DNA from: a virus
Lineage: Duplodnaviria; Heunggongvirae; Uroviricota; Caudoviricetes
Reading direction: 5' to 3' (one strand)
Length of the DNA stretch: 38,887 nt
Virus record (IMG/VR): IMGVR_UViG_3300032070_000730
Of the stretch, positions 2,591 through 35,382 are shown piece by piece. A model generated the notes under the pieces. That model was not told the DNA's origin, ran no database searches, and worked only from the letters and a program-made list of their open reading frames with translations. Positions within the stretch are counted from its first letter, which is position 1, and each line of letters opens with the position of its first letter. The position numbers and the translations under genes are program-made.

Positions 2591-2710
2591 ATGGTCGAAC
2601 CGATGTGGGATTTGAATGAAGAGATTGGTGTAAAAAGATGGCATTTAGTCTTGCTTATAATAATTTTAACGCTTTGCATAGGGTTAATAGGGTTTTTCTT
2701 GCATCATTAA
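2591..2710 (+). CDS. 39-aa single-TM peptide overlapping the next gene (not in ORF track)
   Basis: ATG directly follows the TGA of the upstream gene; MVEPMWDLNEEIGVKRWHLVLLIIILTLCIGLIGFFLHH. Confidence 0.5.
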   Translation: MVEPMWDLNEEIGVKRWHLVLLIIILTLCIGLIGFFLHH

Positions 2711-4752
2711 TCGTTTCCACCGCTCTTTTATTTTTTTCATTTGTCAATGCAAAGGAACTTAAATCGATAGAATATAATGGTGGTTTCGTAGCGACAGCGA
2801 CAGCAAATGTGCCTTATAACAAGACGTTCATCTTCCAATCTCCAGATGGTTTTGATAAATTATATTATGCGAGGGGTTGGGTGAGGGCTGACATATCGAC
2901 AGCAGGGACGAGAATATATGCGAAAGTCGGAAGTAGTTATTGTGACCCGAATTATTATGATGTTCCAGTTGCGATAAGAGATTACAATATGTATTTCGAC
3001 TGCTCGAATGTTATAACAACTCAAGGAACTTATACTGCTGGGTTTCAGGCGAACAGGACTATAAACAATGTCTTCGTGGAATGGAAATTTACATATATGA
3101 ACAATCCCCCGTTTTCAGTCGCATCAATCGGTGGGACTGAATATTCCACAGATGAACCTGCAAGAGTTGTATTGCAGATTTTAGATAATCAAGGAAACCC
3201 AATAATCAATGGTAATTGTTATACAACAATCAGAGACAGTGCAGATAATATAAAAACAAACAATCAAACCTTGAATTTCATTTCTGGTTCAAACGGTCTT
3301 TATTATTATCAGTTTTTGACATCTCTTCCAGTCGGCGTATATTCGGCGGACAGTTATTGCGACATCAATGGAACGAAGATTTATTCTGGAGATACTTTTC
3401 ACGTTGCAGACTGGACGCAGGACATACAGGAAATAGCAAACAAGACAGTAGAATATGTTCTTACTTATGCAAGCGGAACAGAATATGCCATTGGTGAAAA
3501 CGGGACTGTTGCGATTCAATTTTTAAAAATTCAGGCTGGAAACCAGCAACCAGTTAACGATGGGAATTGTATTATAAGCATTTATTACCCGAATATGACC
3601 GCATTTATATTAAATCAATCACTGACGCTTTTGCCAAATTCGGTTGCAATCTATTATAGATATTTCACAGTCCCAGATATGACAGGTCTCTATACAACAA
3701 CAGCACTCTGCGAAAAATCTGGAATCAATATGCTCACTTCAGATTCTTTTCACGTTGGTGCGTGGACTGAAACGATAGGCAACATATCAAACAAAACTTC
3801 TGATTATAATTTAAGGTTTGCAGGTGGAACTGAATACACCACAAATGAGACAGGAACTTTTGTCATACAGTTTATGAGGACGATAGCAGGAAACCCTTCC
3901 CCGATAAACGATGCGGATTATTGCAACGGAACTTTATGGTTTCCAAACAAGACAAAATGGCTGAACAACAAAAGTTTTGTTCATTTAAACAACACCAATG
4001 GACTTTATTATTATAACACAACTACACCAAGCGAAGAAGGGGTGTATATAATAGATGCTATATGTGTGAAAGGTGGTATCATTGCCTATGACAGTGATAC
4101 GTTCCATATCGCAGGATGGGCTAACAGAATCGGGGGAAATGTCAGTTATGTAGCAAACGTAAGCAATGTAAGTTATGTAGAGGCAGTTGGATATGTCGCC
4201 GATGCGAACACTTCATTCTTTGATTTGAGGTATGCAGGTGCGACTGAATATAAGTCTGGAGAGACAGGGCATATCGCATTCCAATTCTTGCAGACTGTAG
4301 CGGGAAGCCCGAAACCAGTGAACGATGGGGAATGCAACACAACGATATGGTATCCTAATAAAACCAAATGGCTTAATAATGTGAATTTGACATACCTTAA
4401 TGGAAGCAATGCACTTTATTATTATCAGTTTAATACACCAACTACAGAAGGGGTATATGAGACTGATGTTGAATGCAAGAAAGGTGGAATAAAGACTTAT
4501 TCATCATCCACGTTCCACGTTGCAGTATGGGCTAACCAGATTTTCAATGTATCAGACCTGATAGTTTCCCACAACAATACAATCTACAATTTCTTGGTTC
4601 AGCACAATTCCACAGTGCATAGTTATCTCCAATCTATGAACACGACTATGACAAATTACTATCTTTCATTGAACCAGACCGCATACGACATAAAGACTAC
4701 ACTCGATGAGATTTATTCTTGGTTCGCTTCAAAGATAGCAGTAATAAGTTAA
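2638..4752 (+). CDS. 704-aa secreted protein with four ~115-aa GTEY...FHV Ig/macroglobulin-like repeats
   Basis: Repeats begin GGTEY/SGTEY/GGTEY/GATEY and end TFHV/SFHV/TFHI/TFHV, each with two conserved Cys. The fold assignment is inference. Confidence 0.7.
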   Translation: MAFSLAYNNFNALHRVNRVFLASLIVSTALLFFSFVNAKELKSIEYNGGFVATATANVPYNKTFIFQSPDGFDKLYYARGWVRADISTAGTRIYAKVGSSYCDPNYYDVPVAIRDYNMYFDCSNVITTQGTYTAGFQANRTINNVFVEWKFTYMNNPPFSVASIGGTEYSTDEPARVVLQILDNQGNPIINGNCYTTIRDSADNIKTNNQTLNFISGSNGLYYYQFLTSLPVGVYSADSYCDINGTKIYSGDTFHVADWTQDIQEIANKTVEYVLTYASGTEYAIGENGTVAIQFLKIQAGNQQPVNDGNCIISIYYPNMTAFILNQSLTLLPNSVAIYYRYFTVPDMTGLYTTTALCEKSGINMLTSDSFHVGAWTETIGNISNKTSDYNLRFAGGTEYTTNETGTFVIQFMRTIAGNPSPINDADYCNGTLWFPNKTKWLNNKSFVHLNNTNGLYYYNTTTPSEEGVYIIDAICVKGGIIAYDSDTFHIAGWANRIGGNVSYVANVSNVSYVEAVGYVADANTSFFDLRYAGATEYKSGETGHIAFQFLQTVAGSPKPVNDGECNTTIWYPNKTKWLNNVNLTYLNGSNALYYYQFNTPTTEGVYETDVECKKGGIKTYSSSTFHVAVWANQIFNVSDLIVSHNNTIYNFLVQHNSTVHSYLQSMNTTMTNYYLSLNQTAYDIKTTLDEIYSWFASKIAVIS

Positions 4753-4804: not shown

Positions 4805-5260
4805 TTGATTACTATGCAAAAAAAGAGAATCGCATTTCTTTTAACTTTACTGACAGTGTTCGGTTTAAGCGGATATTTTTATGTAAACGCAAATCCAGAG
4901 AAATTCGGTGGAACTGTATCATTCGTATCAGGAACAGAATATGCAAGTGGGGACAGTGCACAAACTATAGTCAGAGTCACGAATGCTTTAGGAATAGGAC
5001 TGACTGCTGATTGGTGCAATGTATCAATAGTCTATCCCAATAGAACATCGAATGTAACGACAAACACGGTGATGACAGCAAATGGTGTTGATGGAAGTTG
5101 GAACTATGGTTGGACTGCACCATCTGAATATGGTATCTATGAACAATATGCAGAATGCAAAGTTTCCAACAAGATAATAGCAAACTCAAAGGCATCTCAT
5201 GTATCAGAAACACTAACGCTAATCAATGAAACCAATCCTGTCGCAACAGTATTGACATAA
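4805..5260 (+). CDS. single GTEY-repeat protein with N-terminal TM
   Basis: SGTEY...CNVSIVYPN...C...SHV; paralogue of the 2638 repeats. Confidence 0.7.
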   Translation: MITMQKKRIAFLLTLLTVFGLSGYFYVNANPEKFGGTVSFVSGTEYASGDSAQTIVRVTNALGIGLTADWCNVSIVYPNRTSNVTTNTVMTANGVDGSWNYGWTAPSEYGIYEQYAECKVSNKIIANSKASHVSETLTLINETNPVATVLT

Positions 5261-5280: not shown

Positions 5281-6135
5281 TTAGATTTTCATATTCTTAC
5301 TTATGTGAAATGCTATGATAGATTTTCGTGGAATTGCTGGGTTTATTAGTTTTATGAATCGTTTTGTTTCTTTACTACCACCTAAAACCGATACATGAAA
5401 CATATCAACGCAATCTTTTCTTAAAGAAATTTTAAACCCTAACGAAACAATCAATTTCTTTATTATTGTTATCTTTTTTTCATTTTTTTGGGAGATAATT
5501 GCTCTATAATATCCCTCTTTTTTATATAAACAACCATCACCATCGAAAAATCCTTTTAAATAAAATATTTTACTGTTGTTATTTTTAAACCATGAAATGT
5601 TAAATTTTTTTATCCATTGAATCAAAAAAATTGAATTACATTCAATCAAATAACCAAACCCTTGTTTTATATTTATATCATTTTTTATACAAATGCGGGG
5701 GGTTAAACCTATATTTTTTAAACATTTTTTAAATTCATTAGCAAATTCTTTATCTTTTGTTAGTAATCCAATTTTATAATATTTTCTTTTTTTGAAATTT
5801 ATCCATCCATCACTATGAATAGCCCCCAAAACATAAAATAAATCCTTTGTTTTATCTAAATTAAAACTTACCTTCCATTTCATTTCACAGTATTTCGAGC
5901 AAAAATTATGTTTATTTCTTTTTTTGGCAGATGGCGGTCTATAAAAAAATTTTTTACAGAAATTACATTCAATACTTTCATTCCATCTCTTTGTTTTACT
6001 AATTTTTCTATCCCATTTGTTAAAACATTTGCTCGAACAGAAATTGTGTTTTAAACCCGATTGCTTTCGTTGTTTTATTGTAGATTTGCGTCTAACAAAA
6101 AGAATTTTACAGAAATCGCACCTTAAAATTGGCAT
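5281..6135 (-). CDS. free-standing LAGLIDADG homing endonuclease with N-terminal Cys motifs
   Basis: Two motifs, YVLGAIHSDG and YLKGFFDGDG; CxxC...FCS repeats; antisense insertion between two paralogous structural genes. Confidence 0.85.
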   Translation of the reverse strand: MPILRCDFCKILFVRRKSTIKQRKQSGLKHNFCSSKCFNKWDRKISKTKRWNESIECNFCKKFFYRPPSAKKRNKHNFCSKYCEMKWKVSFNLDKTKDLFYVLGAIHSDGWINFKKRKYYKIGLLTKDKEFANEFKKCLKNIGLTPRICIKNDINIKQGFGYLIECNSIFLIQWIKKFNISWFKNNNSKIFYLKGFFDGDGCLYKKEGYYRAIISQKNEKKITIIKKLIVSLGFKISLRKDCVDMFHVSVLGGSKETKRFIKLINPAIPRKSIIAFHISKNMKI

Positions 6136-6226: not shown

Positions 6227-7111
6227 ATGTCAATTATAAGAGATATATCGTTTTTGGCGTTGGGTATAATGATTACAGTATCGTTTTTAGTCGGTATTTA
6301 TTATACAATTTCACCAAAACCACAAGTGATTTATGAACAAAAAGACCCTTCTCAACCAATATTAGAAGTAGTCAGTAAAACCGAATATTATGCTGGCGAG
6401 AGTGGTCAGGTCATAATAAGAACGAGCGATTATCTTGGCAATCCATTGAATGCCACATGCAATGCTTCTATCATATTTCCGAACAAGACTTTCTGGTATA
6501 TCGATACTTCTCTTTCACCGTCTTCAATTACTGGGAATTATTACAAAGAAGTGACAATTCCAGATGTTCTTGGAGTCTATGAATATTCTTTTGTATGTGA
6601 TATAGATTTTTATGGAAAAAGCACGATAGTCAAGAGGTCTTCAAGTTTCCATGTATCAATCGCATACCAAAAGTTCCAAGAGATAATCGATAAACTCAAT
6701 GCGTTGAACAACACACTGATTCAAATCAATCAAACTAACTACGAGCAGTATCAGAATTTGACGTATATGATAAACAACCTTTCTTATAGTATGAATAACA
6801 ATTTTACCTATACCAATTCGCTGATTCAGAACATCTCTGTATATATAAACATGACAAATGTGACCGATGATATTAAAACCAACATAACAATACAGATTAA
6901 TGATTTGAAAAGTTGGACTGATAATTGGTTCAAGACGATAGAGACAGATATTTTCAATCTTGAGCAAAGATGGATAGACCTGCTTAACAATCTGTTGATG
7001 AAACTGCTTGGAACTTCAAAGTCACTACAAGATGTTGTGGGTCAGACTACTGGTGTAACCCCAACGCCAGACTGTTCTTTATTGAATAGAATACTTGGGA
7101 CTTGTCCGTAG
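6227..7111 (+). CDS. GTEY-repeat protein with N-terminal TM and C-terminal coiled coil
   Basis: KTEY...CNASIIFPN...SFHV followed by Asn/Ile-rich heptads. Confidence 0.7.
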   Translation: MSIIRDISFLALGIMITVSFLVGIYYTISPKPQVIYEQKDPSQPILEVVSKTEYYAGESGQVIIRTSDYLGNPLNATCNASIIFPNKTFWYIDTSLSPSSITGNYYKEVTIPDVLGVYEYSFVCDIDFYGKSTIVKRSSSFHVSIAYQKFQEIIDKLNALNNTLIQINQTNYEQYQNLTYMINNLSYSMNNNFTYTNSLIQNISVYINMTNVTDDIKTNITIQINDLKSWTDNWFKTIETDIFNLEQRWIDLLNNLLMKLLGTSKSLQDVVGQTTGVTPTPDCSLLNRILGTCP

Positions 7112-7545: not shown

Positions 7546-8439
7546 GTGGTATGGAATAAAGGATTAAAAGGAGTTCAAATTGCGTGGAATAAAGGTAAGA
7601 AATGTGATTGGGTTACTAAAAGAAATTTAGAAGACAATCCTTCAAAAAAACCCAAAGTAAAAGAAAAAATATCAAAACATCATATTGATTATTATAAAAC
7701 ACATAAAAATCCGTTCGCTGGGAAAAAACATAAAAAATCAAGTAAAATAAAAATAGGTTTAGCAAATAAAGGAAGATTAGTTGGAGATAAAAACCCTTCA
7801 AAACGATTAGAAGTTAGAATTAAGATACAAGAAAAGAAAAAAGAATGGTGGAGAAAAATACGGAAAACTGAAAAATATGAACTATTCTGTGAAAAATTAA
7901 GAAAAAATAAAACTCGTGCAAAGAAAATTTCTAATGCTCTTTCAGGCGTTCCAAAATCAGAAGAAAGCACAGAAAAAAGAAGAAAGATTTTAAAAGATGG
8001 TTATGCAAATGGAGTTTATAAAATTTGGTGCGAGGGTCATACAAAAGAAAATGATAAACGCTTACAGATTAGTGGATTGAAATCAAGTAAAGCAAAAAAA
8101 GAATTTTTTAAAAAATACCCAGAAAAGCATCCTAATAGAATAATGGCAAAAAAGAAAGGAAAAGTATATATATCAAAACCACAGAGAAAATTGTTTGAAT
8201 TCATTAAGAAAAGATTTAATGATGCTGAATTGGAATTTACTATAAGAACAGAAGAAGGTGTAAGATTTGCTGACATTGGGATTCCAAGTTTGTTTATAGA
8301 TTTTGAATATAATGGTTATTATAAGCATTTCACTCCAGATGGCATAAAAAAAGATATGAAAAGAACAAGAGAAATTTCTAATTCTGGTTGGGGTGTTATA
8401 GTTTTTGAACCCGAAGATTTAGGTTTACGGAAAAACTAA
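7546..8439 (+). CDS. free-standing homing-type endonuclease (NUMOD3-like repeats + Vsr/DUF559-like nuclease)
   Basis: WNKG and NPS/NPF repeats; C-terminal RFADIGIP..IDFEYNGYYKH. Confidence 0.75.
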   Translation: MVWNKGLKGVQIAWNKGKKCDWVTKRNLEDNPSKKPKVKEKISKHHIDYYKTHKNPFAGKKHKKSSKIKIGLANKGRLVGDKNPSKRLEVRIKIQEKKKEWWRKIRKTEKYELFCEKLRKNKTRAKKISNALSGVPKSEESTEKRRKILKDGYANGVYKIWCEGHTKENDKRLQISGLKSSKAKKEFFKKYPEKHPNRIMAKKKGKVYISKPQRKLFEFIKKRFNDAELEFTIRTEEGVRFADIGIPSLFIDFEYNGYYKHFTPDGIKKDMKRTREISNSGWGVIVFEPEDLGLRKN

Positions 8440-8547
8440 ATCATTTCATTTTCTGCACCTTTTAAATATTTCTAAATTTTAATAAATTTTAGATGCTTAT
8501 AGAATCGCAAGATTCTATATAAAAAGGCATAAGATGAGGTGACACCA

Positions 8548-8767
8548 ATGGGTGCTTTGAACGATACTTTAAGCGACATTGGGTCTGGTATTGGTTCGCT
8601 CTTCACAGGAAAGTCTTAACGGATTGACCGAAAGACCCTGAATGGGGGCACCATTAGCCATTTTTGTCATACTGTTGGCAGTCGGAACAGGAATTGGATA
8701 GTTTTTGAAAAGGAAACCCAAAATTATCCTGTCATCGATTGGAAGACGTGTAGGGGCAAAAATTTAA
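8548..8767 (+). CDS. 54-aa coat-like membrane protein, spliced join(8548-8611,8643-8699,8724-8767)
   Basis: Spliced product MGALNDTLSDIGSGIGSLFTGMGAPLAIFVILLAVGTGIGFILSSIGRRVGAKI is colinear with the C-termini of 27222 and 34513. RBS gaggtga precedes the start. The coat function is inference. Confidence 0.85.
8612..8642 (+). other. 31-nt BHB intron
   Basis: Central helix CAGG(8606-09)/CCTG(8637-40), bulges AA|A and AA|T, inner stem GTCTT/AAGAC; contains the in-frame TAA. Confidence 0.9.
8700..8723 (+). other. 24-nt BHB intron
   Basis: Central helix TTGG(8694-97)/CCAA(8718-21), bulges AT|A and AA|T, inner stem GTTT/AAAC, outer CAGGA/TCCTG; removal destroys the TAG. Confidence 0.9.
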
Positions 8768-8834: not shown

Positions 8835-8881
8835 GAGTGTTTAATACACTCGAAGGCTTTTCTTTTTTTTCTTTTTTCTTT
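8835..8881 (+). terminator. hairpin plus oligo-T terminator after the coat-like gene
   Basis: GAGTGT-ttaat-ACACTC then a long T-rich tract. Confidence 0.55.
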
Positions 8882-8900
8882 ATATAGTTTCTTCTACCGT

Positions 8901-8924
8901 TAAATTTTTAGAAATATTTAAATA
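8901..8924 (+). promoter_or_regulatory. shared promoter motif
   Basis: taaatttttagaaataTTTAAATA, 21 nt before ATG 8946. Confidence 0.6.
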
Positions 8925-8945
8925 TTAAAAACAAATAATTTTCTC

Positions 8946-9629
8946 ATGGGTTGTTCAAAAAGACAGTCAATAGAAAATTTAGGTATATGTGCCAAAAAAG
9001 AGTTTCATCCGCCAACGGAATTTAAAAGGGGGTGTGTGGCTTGGAATAAGGGCAAAAAGGTAGATTATAATAATTCTAAATGGCTTAAATCCTTTTATCA
9101 AACACATGAGCATTGCAATAAAAGGAAAACACTTGAAGAAATTTGTGGAATAGAAAAAGCCGAAGAAATAAAAGAGAAGTCTCGTTTAAAAAAAGGTAAA
9201 ACTTACGAAGAACTTTATGGTATAGAAAAAGCCAACGAAATAAAGGAAAACATAAAGAAGGGCATCAAAAAATACAGAAAAAATCATCCAGAATGGAAGA
9301 AAAAATGCCTAAAAAGAAGAATCCCATCAAGTTTAGAAATAAAAATGATTGGGTTAATTAAAAAATTTAACTTACCTTATATTTTTGTTGGAAATGGTAA
9401 ATTCTGGATAGAAAATTGCAATCCAGATTTCATAAATTGTAATGGTGAAAAAAATGCCATAGAAGTTTTTAATAGAGAACACAAAGAGAAATTTAGGGGT
9501 GGAATTGATGAATGGAAAGTAAAAAGGGAGAAAATATTTAGAAAATATGGATGGAAAATTTTATTTTTTGATGAAACAGATGTCAATGAGAATATTATTG
9601 AAAAAATAAATATATACGGGGTGAGTTAA
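8946..9629 (+). CDS. homing-type endonuclease (KGKTYEELYG repeats + PD-(D/E)xK-like nuclease)
   Basis: AWNKG; KTLEEICG/KTYEELYG repeats; NPDFIN...AIEVF; GWKILFF. Confidence 0.7.
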   Translation: MGCSKRQSIENLGICAKKEFHPPTEFKRGCVAWNKGKKVDYNNSKWLKSFYQTHEHCNKRKTLEEICGIEKAEEIKEKSRLKKGKTYEELYGIEKANEIKENIKKGIKKYRKNHPEWKKKCLKRRIPSSLEIKMIGLIKKFNLPYIFVGNGKFWIENCNPDFINCNGEKNAIEVFNREHKEKFRGGIDEWKVKREKIFRKYGWKILFFDETDVNENIIEKINIYGVS

Positions 9630-13255: not shown

Positions 13256-14092
13256 TTGGTAGATAGTTTTGCATTGAAAGCATTTCCAGTATTGACACAA
13301 ATTTCAGCAGGCGACCTTGAATGGCATGTAGATTAATAATCTTAATTGGTTATTAAGCATAAATCCCGTTCAGGAAGACCAGATAGTAGATAAAATGCAA
13401 CAATCAGAGGCATTCGCAAAATGCATAAGCCTTAATAAAACTCCATTGTTCTTCGAGTTCTTGGATTATAAAACAAGATACAGGGAGAATGTTGGTGTAG
13501 AAGTAAAGGGCGGAAATAAGAATATCTTACCGCATCCCGAACAGGTAAGTCAACTGGCGTAACAGCATTATCAAAATATACATCACATTTGAGTTGCGTT
13601 CCATTTACTTTATGGCATGTATGTGCGAATGAAATAGAATATCTTGAGAAATTGAAGACTCCATCTTTGCCATACGGTTCTGTCTTCCAGATAGATGAGC
13701 AGACCGAAACACATACTGGTGCAGGGTCATATTCGGAAATGCAAGTATTGGAAGATATGTCTAATATCATCGCTAAAAATCAAATTCATACTTTTTGGTG
13801 CATGGAAGAGAATACAGTTATCAAAACATTAAATGGGTTAATTAAAATTAAAGATTTACCAAATCCAGAACCTTTTAGAGTATGGGGCTTTAATTTTGAT
13901 AAAAAAAGACCAGAACTGGATTTAGCAGTAAAAACATATAGCGGGGAAAAAGAGATTTTTAATATAGTAACAGAAACAGGCGAAGAAGTTAAAGCAACAA
14001 GAGAACATAGGTTTTTTATACTTAATGGCAGTAAAATACAAGAAAAGAAAGTAGATGAATTAAGAGTTGGGGATAAATTAGTGATGATATGA
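13256..14092 (+). CDS. P-loop ATPase N-half + N-intein, spliced join(13256-13331,13363-13515,13536-14092)
   Basis: TTG after gaggtga. The spliced product has VEVKGGTRTGKST (Walker A) and VFQIDE (Walker B), then a Hint domain from Cys at 13799. A packaging role is inference. Confidence 0.85.
13332..13362 (+). other. 31-nt BHB/BHL intron
   Basis: Central helix ATGT/GCAT (one G-U), bulges AG|A and AA|A, 9-bp inner stem TTAATAATC/GGTTATTAA (one G-U); 31 nt is exactly the frame shift needed (HVD-PVQ). Confidence 0.75.
13516..13535 (+). other. 20-nt BHB intron inside Walker A
   Basis: GG/CC outer pairs, central helix GCGG/CCGC, bulges AA|A and AT|C, inner stem TAAGA/TCTTA; removal gives GGC GGA ACC CGA ACA GGT AAG TCA. 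Confidence 0.93.
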
Positions 14093-27178: not shown

Positions 27179-27199
27179 ATTTTTAGAAAATTTTAAATA
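27178..27199 (+). promoter_or_regulatory. shared promoter motif
   Basis: aatttttagaaaatTTTAAATA, 22 nt before ATG 27222. Confidence 0.65.
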
Positions 27200-27221
27200 T
27201 TTTAACATTTAAATATCATTC

Positions 27222-27524
27222 ATGTATAAAAAACTTTTTTTAGTCTATGCTTCATTTTTCTTCTTATTCATGCCAGCAGTTCTGGCTGATGACGTGTTTG
27301 CTCATATCAGGATACAATTCGAGACTGTATTGGGCGACATAGGTGCGGGTATTGGCTCTTTATTTACTGGCATGGGGGCTGGGCTTACTATATTCATAAT
27401 ACTTCTTGCTGTCGCTGGAATGATTGCTTTTATAATATCAGCAATAGCAAAGAGGGCTGGATATGGAGAAGACGGTTATCAATCTCCGCCACCAGAAGGC
27501 GACGGTTATCAGAGACCCGTTTAA
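27222..27524 (+). CDS. intron-less coat-like paralogue with signal peptide and (E/G)DGYQ-repeat tail
   Basis: LGDIGAGIGSLFTGMGAGLTIFIILLAV..MIAFIISAIAKR. Confidence 0.75.
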   Translation: MYKKLFLVYASFFFLFMPAVLADDVFAHIRIQFETVLGDIGAGIGSLFTGMGAGLTIFIILLAVAGMIAFIISAIAKRAGYGEDGYQSPPPEGDGYQRPV

Positions 27525-28123
27525 ACTTGATGAGAATTATACCATTTATAAAAAACAGTTTCAAATGTTCTTTTAATAGTTTTTTCTGGGACATAATCTC
27601 TAACTAAATCATACAAAACTTTTCGATATATGTGATTTTCAACAAAACCATGATTTTTTCTGTCTATTTTAATAACTTTTTTTCCACCTAATTCTCGTGG
27701 AACAATATGATGTTGAAGAAATTTAGAACTATTTCTTTTTAGTTTTTCTCTATATTCTTTACTATTAAAAACAGAATTTGGGTCTTTCCACAATTCTTTC
27801 ATTCTTTTTGTTCTTGTTTCTCTTAATAAACTAATGTGATATTCATCGAGTTTTCTATGCAAAAACGGATGCGGGTTTTCTTTGAGCCATTTCTTCATTA
27901 TTTCACTATGCAAATTTTTGTATTCTTTTGTATTATATTTGGAATATGGGTCTTTCCATTCTCTAATTTTAGCGATTTTTAATTTTTCCTTCACTTCTGG
28001 TCTTTTTGAGGGGTTGTTATCGCTTGAAAATCTAATCCTTAATTTGTTTTTTATTCCTTTCGCTCTCTTTTTTCCATATATTTCTTCAAGTGTCTTTCCC
28101 TTCCTCTGTCTTCTTTTGTCCAT
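27521..28123 (-). CDS. HNH homing-type endonuclease with KGKTLEEIYG/NPS repeats
   Basis: QHHIVPRELGG...NHGFVENH. Confidence 0.7.
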   Translation of the reverse strand: MDKRRQRKGKTLEEIYGKKRAKGIKNKLRIRFSSDNNPSKRPEVKEKLKIAKIREWKDPYSKYNTKEYKNLHSEIMKKWLKENPHPFLHRKLDEYHISLLRETRTKRMKELWKDPNSVFNSKEYREKLKRNSSKFLQHHIVPRELGGKKVIKIDRKNHGFVENHIYRKVLYDLVRDYVPEKTIKRTFETVFYKWYNSHQV

Positions 28124-28382
28124 TTCGTTCCCTTATTTTATTTAAAAATGTTATTAAGTCATCAAGATATTCGATTTTTAGACTTATTCCTTTTCTACTC
28201 CATCCCTGATAGCGTTCCCCATGAAGAAATTTTCTTATATCGATATATTTGTTTCCTTTGAAATCGGTAACTCTTACAATAATATCTGCTGTCGCTCCAG
28301 TTATCCTTCCAATCTCATTGCCAGATTCTGTCGGCGTTGCTTCCCCTTCCTCAATCTTTGCATCAGCGTATTCATCTTCCAT
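28086..28382 (-). CDS. PC4-like ssDNA-binding protein
   Basis: VRVTDFKGNKYIDIRKF...WSRKGISL matches the PC4 family pattern. Confidence 0.8.
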   Translation of the reverse strand: MEDEYADAKIEEGEATPTESGNEIGRITGATADIIVRVTDFKGNKYIDIRKFLHGERYQGWSRKGISLKIEYLDDLITFLNKIRERNGQKKTEEGKDT

Positions 28383-34467: not shown

Positions 34468-34490
34468 AAATTTTTAGAAAATTTTAAATA
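34468..34490 (+). promoter_or_regulatory. shared promoter motif
   Basis: aaatttttagaaaatTTTAAATA, 22 nt before ATG 34513. Confidence 0.65.
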
Positions 34491-34512: not shown

Positions 34513-35382
34513 ATGAGAAAAATCCTTTTGCTTTTGGTCATGTTTCTATTTGTTCTTACTTTTCAGCAGGTCAAATCATCATCTTTAATTAATTGGTGGA
34601 AATTTGATGAATGTTCTGGAGATTTAGTCGCTGATAGTGTCGGAGTAAGTGATGGAACAAGGTATAATTTTGATAATGGCTGGGTTTCTGGTGTAAGTGG
34701 TTGTGCTTTGGAGTTTGATGGAACAGATGATTATGTTAGTATGAATAATGATTCTTCGTTGAATTTTGGTTTAAATAATTTTTCAGTTTCATTTTGGATT
34801 AGAATTGATAATGAAGATTTTTATGGAGATGTTGTTCACAAATCAGGCGGTGAGTTTGGTGATATTGGATGGGGATTCTATACAACATCATCAGATGTAA
34901 TGAGTTTTTTTGCTCAAGATACGGATGAAATAGGGTATATAGACCTTGAATCGTCAGTAGATATACAAGGAACTGGATGGCATTATATAACAGCAACAAG
35001 AGAAGGAAACACATTTAAACTTTATATTGATGGTAATTTGGATATTTTTGATGACACGCAGACAGTTGGTGATTTAGATGTAGTAGATAATTTAACAATA
35101 GGAACACCTTCACTGCTTCGTGCATATTTTAATGGGTCAATAGATGAAGTCAAATTTTATGACTATTATTTATCTGGTAATGAAATCATAGCAGAATATA
35201 ACAGTTATTTTCCACATTATCACCCTTTAAATGATACTTTATCTGATGTTGGTCAAGGTGTTGGAAATCTTTTGTTGAATATGTCACCACCACTCACAAT
35301 CTTAATTATAATCCTTGCTGTTGTAAGTATGGTCGGGTTCATAATATCGTCAGTCGGAAGAAGAATTGGAGAGAAGATATAA
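34513..35382 (+). CDS. LamG/concanavalin-A-like domain fused to a coat-like C-terminal module
   Basis: WWKFDE...ALEFDGTDDYV...FSVSFWI...WHYIT...LYIDG...FNGSIDEVKFY, then LNDTLSDVGQGVGNLL...GFIISSVGRRIGEKI. Confidence 0.85.
   Translation: MRKILLLLVMFLFVLTFQQVKSSSLINWWKFDECSGDLVADSVGVSDGTRYNFDNGWVSGVSGCALEFDGTDDYVSMNNDSSLNFGLNNFSVSFWIRIDNEDFYGDVVHKSGGEFGDIGWGFYTTSSDVMSFFAQDTDEIGYIDLESSVDIQGTGWHYITATREGNTFKLYIDGNLDIFDDTQTVGDLDVVDNLTIGTPSLLRAYFNGSIDEVKFYDYYLSGNEIIAEYNSYFPHYHPLNDTLSDVGQGVGNLLLNMSPPLTILIIILAVVSMVGFIISSVGRRIGEKI

What the first reader, a model, noticed from the sequence alone, without database searches (positions are those of the whole stretch)
8548..8767. Hidden 54-aa coat-like gene rebuilt by two introns and validated by in-window paralogues
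Unspliced, the ORF stops after 23 codons. Removing 8612-8642 and 8700-8723 creates junction codons A|TG (Met) and T|TT (Phe). These reproduce SLFTG-M-G as in 27222 (SLFTGMGAG) and G-F-I as in 34513 (GFIISSVGRRIGEKI versus GFILSSIGRRVGAKI), with no gap. The gene has a strong RBS and its own terminator, as expected for a highly expressed structural gene.
Basis: seen in the sequence. Interest (0 to 1): 0.9.

Follow-up and report, generated by a model that had tools for sequence, protein, structure and literature searches.

The report
Two tRNA-type mini-introns split gene
A tiny 54-residue membrane-protein gene of an uncultivated archaeal virus-like element is broken by two very short inserts that have the exact shape cut out by the archaeal tRNA-splicing enzyme; relatives carry intact copies or other such inserts at five sites, so this is very probably a rare case of messenger-RNA splicing in archaea.

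Summary
Removing 8612-8642 (31 nt) and 8700-8723 (24 nt) gives a 54-residue protein. It aligns without gaps to the C-terminal module of the genes at 34513 and 27222.

New evidence:
- Uninterrupted 54-residue orthologues (72-94% identical) exist in other metagenomes. Against them the window has exactly these two pure insertions.
- Both inserts sit in a canonical bulge-helix-bulge (BHB) motif.
- Ten inserts in six alleles, at five sites of this 162-nt gene, plus an eleventh in raw contigs, follow the same rule. Nine of 10 meet the strict test, against a chance rate of 0.0035 per placement.
- The helices show compensatory changes.
- The spliced frame stayed under strong purifying selection after intron gain (dN/dS 0.02-0.07).
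- Translational bypass, pseudogene and other intron types fail their tests.

No RNA data exist, so splicing itself is inferred.

"Coat-like" is unsupported. The product is a two-helix, single-pass membrane protein with no family match.

Nuclease (homing-endonuclease-like) genes flank most intron-bearing alleles. A low-divergence tract surrounds the shared intron. Both hint at DNA-level mobility.

This scan has noted similar BHB micro-introns before, in this genome and in at least 12 other genomes.

The parts
8448..8470 (+). Promoter-like box with TATA-like TTTAAATA (8461-8468)
   Evidence: Conserved almost letter for letter in alleles L010 and L014 (alignment A4). The same kind of box precedes the genes at 8946, 27222 and 34513. 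Function is inferred.
8498..8519 (+). 5'-leader hairpin: 9-bp stem TATAGAATC / GATTCTATA, loop GCAA
   Evidence: Read from the sequence. The stem is kept in L010 and L014 with changed bases (A4). Role unknown.
8536..8542 (+). Shine-Dalgarno-like GAGGTGA, 5 nt before the start codon
   Evidence: The GGTGA core is conserved in intron-less alleles (A1).
8548..8611 (+). Exon 1 (codons 1-21 plus the first base of Met22)
   Evidence: It ends with central-helix strand CAGG (8606-8609) and bulge bases AA (8610-8611).
8612..8642 (+). Intron B, 31 nt, BHB type
   Evidence: Central helix CAGG 8606-09 / CCTG 8637-40. Bulges AA|A and AA|T. Inner helix GTCTT/AAGAC plus CGG/CCG. Outer helix 4 of 5 pairs. The unconstrained minimum-energy fold reproduces the motif, z = -2.7. 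It is a pure 31-nt insertion relative to intron-less orthologues. A homologous intron is in L010 with CCTG changed to CTTG, which keeps a G-U pair.
8643..8699 (+). Exon 2 (last two bases of Met22 to the first base of Phe41)
8700..8723 (+). Intron E, 24 nt, BHB type; the unspliced message has an in-frame TAG at 8699-8701
   Evidence: Central helix TTGG 8694-97 / CCAA 8718-21. Bulges AT|A and AA|T. Inner helix of 6 bp, GTTTTT/GGAAAC. Outer helix ACAGGA/TCCTGT with one or two unpaired bases. It is a pure 24-nt insertion relative to orthologues. The cut gives Phe, as in orthologue P0003.
8724..8767 (+). Exon 3 (last two bases of Phe41 to stop TAA 8765-8767)
8835..8882 (+). Hairpin (8835-8851) plus oligo-T run (8858-8882): terminator-like
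   Evidence: Read from the sequence. Not called by the bacterial-type scan. Inferred.
7546..8439 (+). Flanking free-standing nuclease gene (WNKGKK repeats, C-terminal DUF559/Vsr-like domain); absent at this place in intron-less allele L001
   Evidence: The C-terminal 105 residues are 42% identical (E 2e-23) to the L015 neighbour, which matches Pfam DUF559. Synteny.
8946..9629 (+). Flanking gene with a WNKGKK motif; possible homing-endonuclease-like gene, unverified
   Evidence: No Pfam match. Only motif-level likeness to the 7546 gene. Also present next to intron-less alleles L001-L005.
27222..27524 (+). Paralogue: signal peptide, the same module, then an acidic/proline tail
35224..35382 (+). 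Paralogous module forming the C-terminal anchor of the LamG-domain protein 34513-35382

Best explanation
The locus is a functional gene for a 54-residue protein with one predicted membrane helix, carried by an uncultivated archaeal virus-like or mobile element. Its coding sequence is interrupted by two archaeal bulge-helix-bulge (BHB) micro-introns. In the transcript, each intron pairs 4 nt near its 3' end with 4 nt of the upstream exon. This makes a 4-bp helix flanked by two 3-nt bulges. The host tRNA-splicing endonuclease (EndA) would cut between the second and third base of each bulge. An RtcB-type ligase would then join the exons, creating codons ATG (Met22) and TTT (Phe41). Shown here: the gene family, the exact insertion boundaries, the BHB geometry, covariation in related introns, and selection on the spliced frame. 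Inferred: the cutting and joining in vivo, and which enzymes do it. Neither enzyme is encoded in the window. The introns are polymorphic among relatives and probably move at DNA level, possibly together with the neighbouring nuclease genes.
For: (1) Twelve full-length uninterrupted orthologues (53-66 residues, most exactly 54), 72-94% identical over 94-100% of the spliced product. DNA alignment shows the window has exactly a 31-nt and a 24-nt insertion and no deletion. The junction residues Met and Phe/Tyr match the orthologues.
The cut rule 'between second and third bulge residue' is the published one for cbf5 (PMC2738675).
(3) It generalises. Ten inserts of 23-79 nt, in six alleles at five sites, all have the motif at the frame-restoring placement. 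Nine of 10 meet the strict test. Controls: 1 of 160 shifted placements, 2 of 170 in mirror geometry, null 0.0035 per placement. An eleventh 35-nt variant sits at site A in contigs of two further samples.
(4) Covariation at site A: the central and inner helices are 100% paired. Four of 5 inner pairs show double-sided changes. One exon synonymous change is matched by an intron change. Slid controls give 32-63% paired.
(5) All five complete intron-bearing alleles splice to an intact 54-residue ORF; L014 is cut by its contig end. dN/dS is 0.067 for window vs L010, which share intron B. It is 0.015 for L013 vs L015, which share site C and have identical proteins with 29 synonymous differences.
(6) Unconstrained folding recovers the motif.
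(7) A second gene in the window has a canonical 20-nt BHB insert at 13516-13535. Its removal restores a Walker A motif.
Against: There is no RNA evidence. No RNA run holding the locus could be listed, so excision and ligation are not demonstrated. The host and its endonuclease type are unknown, and the window encodes no EndA or RtcB. For the window's own two introns, structure support is weaker than for site A. Intron B shows only one-sided G-C to G-U changes in relatives. Intron E has no close homologue, and its fold is no better than shuffles (z = -0.75). Its 3' bulge and outer helix are slightly irregular. A loose BHB pattern alone is common: about 800 chance hits per strand in the window. 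The significance therefore rests on the coincidence with independently defined boundaries.
Confidence: 0.85

Rival explanations
1. The locus is a decaying pseudogene copy of the membrane-anchor module. The two inserts are random insertions, and the restored frame is a coincidence of homology.
For: Unspliced, the ORF dies after 23 codons. Two intact paralogous modules exist in the same window. The gene lies between mobile nuclease genes.
Against: The exons carry no other defect. Five complete intron-bearing alleles all splice to an intact 54-residue ORF with dN/dS of 0.015-0.07. Random insertions would not carry a BHB at the exact frame-restoring bond in 10 of 10 cases when the null is 0.0035-0.024 per placement. 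Compensatory changes keep the helices.
Confidence: 0.03
2. The inserts are coding gaps skipped by the ribosome (programmed translational bypassing), as in phage T4 gene 60 or the yeast mitochondrial 'byp' elements.
For: The inserts are short, hairpin-forming, and carry stops or frameshifts in a mobile-element gene next to nuclease genes. That is the same overall picture as the MobA/gene 60 cassette (10.1101/2022.08.31.505936). In the window both gaps follow a GGA codon, and intron E starts at a TAG stop, as in gene 60.
Against: Bypassing needs matched take-off and landing codons. None of the 10 inserts has a matching codon pair at the offset that yields the colinear protein. The best case is GGA/TGA. 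Seven of 10 inserts split a codon, so hopping cannot produce the conserved junction residue (Phe/Tyr41). The BHB rule predicts all boundaries to the base.
Confidence: 0.03
3. The BHB motifs are real endonuclease sites but act as processing or regulatory sites. They would give mRNA cleavage, or release of small circular RNAs, without productive exon ligation, so little or no 54-residue protein is made from this allele.
For: Archaeal splicing endonuclease also processes rRNA precursors and other BHB-bearing RNAs (PMC7714728 abstract). Ligation efficiency for an mRNA is unknown.
Against: The downstream exons stay in register and under strong purifying selection in alleles that have carried the introns long enough to saturate synonymous sites. 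That requires a translated, joined product.
Confidence: 0.06
4. The inserts are assembly artefacts, or a small DNA transposon (MITE-like) family unrelated to RNA splicing.
For: The sequence comes from metagenome assembly. The inner hairpins resemble short inverted repeats.
Against: The same inserts appear in independent assemblies and samples from JGI, ENA and Logan. The insert sequences are mostly unrelated to each other and do not recur elsewhere in the window. Only intron B could be read as having a target duplication, a 3-nt GAA repeat; the L013 insert has a 1-nt ambiguity and the other eight have none. Part of each helix is made of exon bases, so each insert is fitted to its site.
Confidence: 0.02

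Closest known systems
BHB intron in cbf5 pre-mRNA of Crenarchaeota (Watanabe 2002; Yokobori 2009, PMC2738675)
   Same: A protein-coding archaeal gene interrupted by a short intron in a bulge-helix-bulge motif. The cut lies between the second and third bulge residues. There is lineage-specific presence and absence.
   Different: cbf5 has one intron, in one cellular housekeeping gene of cultivated hyperthermophiles, and splicing was shown by cDNA. Here the gene is a 54-codon gene of an uncultivated mobile element or virus. It has two introns in the window, up to three per allele, and five sites across alleles. The introns are as short as 23-24 nt, nuclease genes lie alongside, and there are no RNA data.
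BHB introns of archaeal tRNA and rRNA genes (EndA plus RtcB pathway)
   Same: Same motif geometry, the same predicted cut positions and the same size range as tRNA introns. Some rRNA introns are mobile through homing endonucleases (established knowledge; reviews PMC4090602, PMC6379350).
   Different: The substrate is an mRNA, and the exon strands of the helices must also encode protein. Any nuclease gene lies beside the gene, not inside the intron.
Phage T4 gene 60 bypass cassette with the MobA homing endonuclease (10.1101/2022.08.31.505936)
   Same: A short non-coding insert in a conserved gene of a virus, neutralised during gene expression, and linked to a neighbouring free-standing nuclease. 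In T4 the insert protects the carrier from its own nuclease. Relatives with and without the insert exist.
   Different: T4 neutralises the insert by ribosome hopping between matched GGA codons. Here the matched-codon rule fails and the neutralising step is predicted RNA splicing. Protection from the nuclease is untested here.
Collaborative homing of group I introns with free-standing endonucleases in phages (term and context in PMC2790892 and PMC3984707)
   Same: An intron that interrupts a target gene while an endonuclease gene sits outside it. Flanking exon sequence is co-converted. Here a low-divergence tract surrounds the shared intron B.
   Different: Those introns are self-splicing ribozymes of hundreds of bases in bacteria. 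These are 23-79 nt and depend on host enzymes.
Putative 12-bp introns in protein genes of the archaeal rudivirus SIRV1 (Peng et al., as cited in PMC2738675)
   Same: Very short polymorphic inserts in protein-coding genes of an archaeal virus, proposed to be introns without RNA proof.
   Different: Those inserts are 12 bp, so they preserve the frame. According to the citing paper neither splicing nor the insertion mechanism was shown. Here the inserts break the frame and have full BHB motifs with covariation.

Membership tests
Archaeal BHB (splicing-endonuclease) intron | 4-bp central helix flanked by two 3-nt bulges on opposite strands | tested here: met
   Intron B: CAGG/CCTG with bulges AAA and AAT. 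Intron E: TTGG/CCAA with bulges ATA and AAT. The minimum-energy folds agree. Intron E's 3' bulge region is slightly relaxed.
Archaeal BHB (splicing-endonuclease) intron | Cutting between the 2nd and 3rd bulge base on both strands yields the functional exon junction | tested here: met
   The predicted cuts equal the insertion boundaries defined independently by intron-less orthologues. The rule is from PMC2738675. It holds for 10 of 10 inserts in six alleles.
Archaeal BHB (splicing-endonuclease) intron | Flanking helices (h and h') that stabilise the motif | tested here: met
   Inner helices are 5 bp (B) and 6 bp (E). Outer helices are 4 of 5 pairs (B), and 3 of 5 contiguous or 6 bp with a 1-nt bulge (E).
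Archaeal BHB (splicing-endonuclease) intron | Structure maintained in evolution by compensatory changes | tested here: inconclusive
   Clear for the related site-A introns: 4 of 5 inner pairs and 1 central pair show double-sided changes. For the window's intron B only one-sided G-C to G-U changes are seen. Intron E has no alignable homologue.
Archaeal BHB (splicing-endonuclease) intron | Excision and exon ligation observed in RNA | not testable with these tools
   No RNA run holding the locus could be listed.
Archaeal BHB (splicing-endonuclease) intron | Host encodes EndA and an RtcB-type ligase | not testable with these tools
   No genome is held for the window. No relative was found in species genomes. 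Neither enzyme is in the window.
Programmed translational bypass (T4 gene 60 / mitochondrial byp) | Matched take-off and landing codons at the edges of the gap | tested here: not met
   0 of 10 inserts have a matching pair at the colinear offset. Seven of 10 split a codon.
Group I, group II or spliceosomal-type introns | Ribozyme core, or GT..AG boundaries | tested here: not met
   No Rfam family is found in the window. Inserts of 24-31 nt are too short for a ribozyme. None of the inserts starts GT and ends AG.
   No Pfam or PHROG hit. PDB profile search gave only E > 1. BFVD fold search gave 0 matches. The best atlas scores are 0.80-0.85, below the 0.9 lead threshold.
   Two helices, 2-20 and 23-53, pLDDT 86. 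The hydrophobic core is about residues 24-47. This feature is not specific to coat proteins.

The most novel reading that the evidence does not exclude
BHB micro-introns form a mobile, site-fitted intron system in an archaeal virus-like element. A tiny, probably highly expressed gene has gained them repeatedly at five or more sites. Each intron recognises its site by base pairing with 4 exon bases. Sites D and E share the exon context ATTGGA and the intron strand CCAA. The introns spread between genomes by gene conversion, together with or in response to neighbouring free-standing nucleases. They may break the nucleases' target sites, which would be an RNA-splicing counterpart of the T4 MobA/bypass cassette.
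Probability: 0.35. Interest if true: 0.9.

Novelty: new variant of a known kind. Interest (0 to 1): 0.8.

Why it matters
In the literature searched here, endonuclease-type splicing of an archaeal mRNA has been confirmed for one gene only, cbf5. This locus shows the same mechanism very probably acting on a mobile-element or viral gene. It acts at a density of up to three introns in 165 nt and with natural intron-plus and intron-minus alleles.

That has three consequences:
- Gene callers miss such genes. Here they produced 23-, 38- and 40-residue fragments.
- The allele series is a ready-made experimental system for how BHB introns are gained, lost and moved.
- The link to flanking nucleases offers a testable reason why such introns exist.

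Tried and rejected
- RNA evidence: no RNA holder was listed for the 4-kb stretch or for the gene alone. Only DNA contigs could be laid.
- Window-wide search for BHB hits that rescue broken ORFs: uninformative. It gave 121 canonical against 127 mirror-geometry hits. A loose BHB pattern occurs about 800 times per strand by chance.
- Relatives in IMG/VR viral contigs and in species-representative genomes: none confirmed, so neither host nor virus family could be named.
- No whole genome is held for the window. Cluster look-up gave no names.
- Function of the 54-residue protein: Pfam, PHROGs, PDB profile, BFVD fold search and protein atlas gave nothing usable.
- The 12-nt repeat ATAGTTTTTGAA (8398 and 8698) looked like a link between intron E and the upstream nuclease gene. 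A repeat of that length arises in 136 of 2000 shuffles, so I treat it as chance.
- TAG read-through across intron E would add 8 mostly charged residues inside the membrane helix. It does not mend intron B, so I rejected it.
- The bacterial promoter and terminator scan is not informative for an archaeal element.
- No tRNA genes or Rfam families were found in the window.

Full report
**Observation.** From ATG 8548 the reading frame ends after 23 codons. Deleting 8612-8642 (31 nt) and 8700-8723 (24 nt) produces a 165-nt ORF of 54 codons with junction codons A|TG and T|TT. The product aligns without gaps to the last 52 residues of the LamG-domain protein at 34513-35382. It also aligns to residues 34-85 of the 100-residue protein at 27222-27524, at 58-60% identity.

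**The gene is real and the inserts are pure insertions.** A search with the spliced product found 14 proteins. Twelve are full-length, uninterrupted orthologues of 53-66 residues, most exactly 54. They are 72-94% identical over 94-100% of the query. They come from JGI, NCBI, ENA and Logan assemblies, on contigs up to about 100 kb.
- DNA alignment with the intron-less locus L001 shows that the window differs by exactly a 31-nt and a 24-nt insertion, with no loss of reference bases.
- The orthologues have Met at the first junction and Phe (P0003, P0004) or Tyr at the second.
- Two further hits were ORF fragments of 40 and 38 residues that stop or start at the same places. This showed that other alleles are interrupted too.

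**The inserts are BHB introns by geometry.** In the archaeal bulge-helix-bulge motif, the splicing endonuclease cuts between the second and third residue of each 3-nt bulge (PMC2738675).
- Intron B: exon bases CAGG (8606-8609) pair with intron bases CCTG (8637-8640). The bulges are AA|A and AA|T. The inner helix is GTCTT/AAGAC, and the outer helix has 4 of 5 pairs.
- Intron E: TTGG (8694-8697) pairs with CCAA (8718-8721). The bulges are AT|A and AA|T. A 6-bp inner helix and an outer helix ACAGGA/TCCTGT flank them.
- Unconstrained folding recovers the motif for both. The energy z-score is -2.7 for B and only -0.75 for E.

A loose BHB pattern is common by chance, about 800 hits per strand. The weight therefore lies in the coincidence with boundaries fixed independently by the orthologues.

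**The rule generalises.** A metagenome scan plus the fragment look-ups gave six interrupted alleles with ten inserts of 23-79 nt at five sites of this 162-nt coding sequence.
- The sites are: A, after nt 20; B, after nt 64; C, after nt 72; D, after nt 109; E, after nt 121 or 122.
- L015 carries three introns.
- All ten inserts have the motif at a placement that restores the frame and the family sequence. Nine of 10 meet the strict criterion.
- Controls: 1 of 160 shifted placements, 2 of 170 placements in mirror-image geometry, and a null frequency of 0.0035 per placement.
- Laying contigs of four further samples on the window revealed an eleventh case. It is a 35-nt insert after 8567 (site A) in a near-identical background, again with CGAT/GTCG and a new inner helix TTCAT/ATGAA. 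The contig from run X5 that carries it also has intron B but lacks intron E.

**Covariation and selection.**
- For the four site-A introns, the central and inner helices are 100% paired.
- Four of five inner pairs show changes on both sides.
- One synonymous exon change (C to T) is matched by an intron change (G to A).
- Sliding the partners drops pairing to 32-63%.
- All five complete interrupted alleles splice to an intact 54-residue ORF.
- The window and L010 share intron B, so they diverged after its gain. Their dS is about 1 and their dN/dS is 0.067.
- L013 and L015 share site C. They encode identical proteins despite 29 synonymous differences.

A dead gene would not behave so.

**Rivals.**
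- Translational bypass requires matched take-off and landing codons. None of ten inserts has them, and seven split a codon.
- Group I, group II and spliceosomal-type introns are excluded by size, by the absence of Rfam hits and by boundaries.
- Assembly artefact is excluded by recurrence in independent assemblies.
- A transposon family is unlikely. The inserts are mostly unrelated in sequence, do not recur in the window and include exon bases in their helices.
- What remains open is whether cleavage is followed by efficient ligation. The selection data argue that it is.

**What the protein is.** The model has two helices, 2-20 and 23-53, with pLDDT 86. The hydrophobic core is about residues 24-47 and the C-terminal end is basic. 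No family, solved structure or viral model matches. The same module anchors a signal-peptide LamG protein and a second secreted protein of the element.

Upstream lie three proteins that share a repeated domain. Some relatives carry two tandem copies of the 54-residue gene. A virion or membrane structural role is a reasonable guess; I put it at about 0.3. It is not shown.

**Mobility hints.**
- Genes for HNH or DUF559/Vsr-type nucleases lie directly beside the interrupted alleles of four of five lineages: the window, L010/L014, L006/L007 and L015.
- Among five intron-less lineages, only one has a neighbour of uncertain nuclease nature.
- Between the window and L010, an 87-nt tract centred on intron B differs at 4 positions. 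The rest of the gene differs at 31 of 109 (Fisher p = 9e-6).
- The intron-less L001 shows no such dip.

This fits transfer of the intron with flanking exon sequence. It parallels nuclease-linked cassettes in phages, but the sample is small.

**Context and novelty.** The literature searched reports confirmed mRNA BHB splicing only for cbf5, and unproven 12-bp inserts in a rudivirus. A second gene in this window (13516-13535) has a canonical BHB insert whose removal restores a Walker A motif. Earlier notes of this scan report similar micro-introns in this genome and in at least 12 others, several beside homing-endonuclease genes. Those are unverified leads, not evidence.

I class this locus as a new variant of a known kind. 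The mechanism is known. The setting, density, polymorphism and nuclease linkage are new.

Noticed in passing
window 13516-13535: A 20-nt insert with a canonical BHB: GCGG/CCGC, bulges AAA and ATC, 5-bp inner helix. Its removal restores a Walker A motif (GGTRTGKST) in an ATPase gene that also carries an intein.
   Followed up: partly
L015:1237-1497: An orthologue with three BHB introns (36, 37 and 23 nt) in one 165-nt coding sequence. The exons are 20, 52, 37 and 56 nt.
   Followed up: yes
L013:784-862: A 79-nt intron at the same site (C) as a 37-nt intron in L015. The two alleles encode identical proteins.
   Followed up: partly
L014:1621-1632 (contig end): After the codons for Ile-Phe-Val the sequence turns into TGAGTT and the contig ends. 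This may be a sixth intron site and cannot be checked.
   Followed up: no
window 8498-8519; L010 and L014 in alignment A4: A hairpin in the 5' leader, between the promoter-like box and the ribosome-binding site. The stem is kept with changed bases in relatives. Function unknown.
   Followed up: no
L016:6001-6165 and 6257-6421: Two tandem copies of the 54-residue gene (P0007 and P0008) in an NCBI metagenome assembly, both uninterrupted.
   Followed up: no
window 2638-4752, 4805-5260, 6227-7111: The three proteins upstream of the small gene share a repeated domain with each other (cross-hits in tblastn). In L001 the large one carries a Laminin_G_3 domain.
   Followed up: no
window 5281-6135 (-): A LAGLIDADG plus zf-FCS endonuclease-like gene on the opposite strand. 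It sits between two genes that are adjacent in relatives L001 and L016.
   Followed up: no
L020:572-979: In one relative, the gene next to the 54-residue gene has an RNA polymerase Rpb5 C-terminal domain. This is an archaeal/eukaryotic-type feature.
   Followed up: no
window 28086-28382 (-): A small protein with a PC4 (transcriptional coactivator p15) domain, E 1.8e-8.
   Followed up: no
window 27181-27200, 34471-34490, 8904-8926: A near-identical box, TTTTTAGAAA(A/T)(T/A)TTTAAATA, about 24-31 nt before the start codons of three genes. This suggests a shared promoter and leaderless transcripts.
   Followed up: no
W intron E (8700-8723) and L015:1419-1441: Introns at two different sites (E and D) share the exon context ATTGGA, the pairing strand CCAA and about 58% of their letters by eye. 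This may be transposition of one intron between look-alike sites.
   Followed up: no
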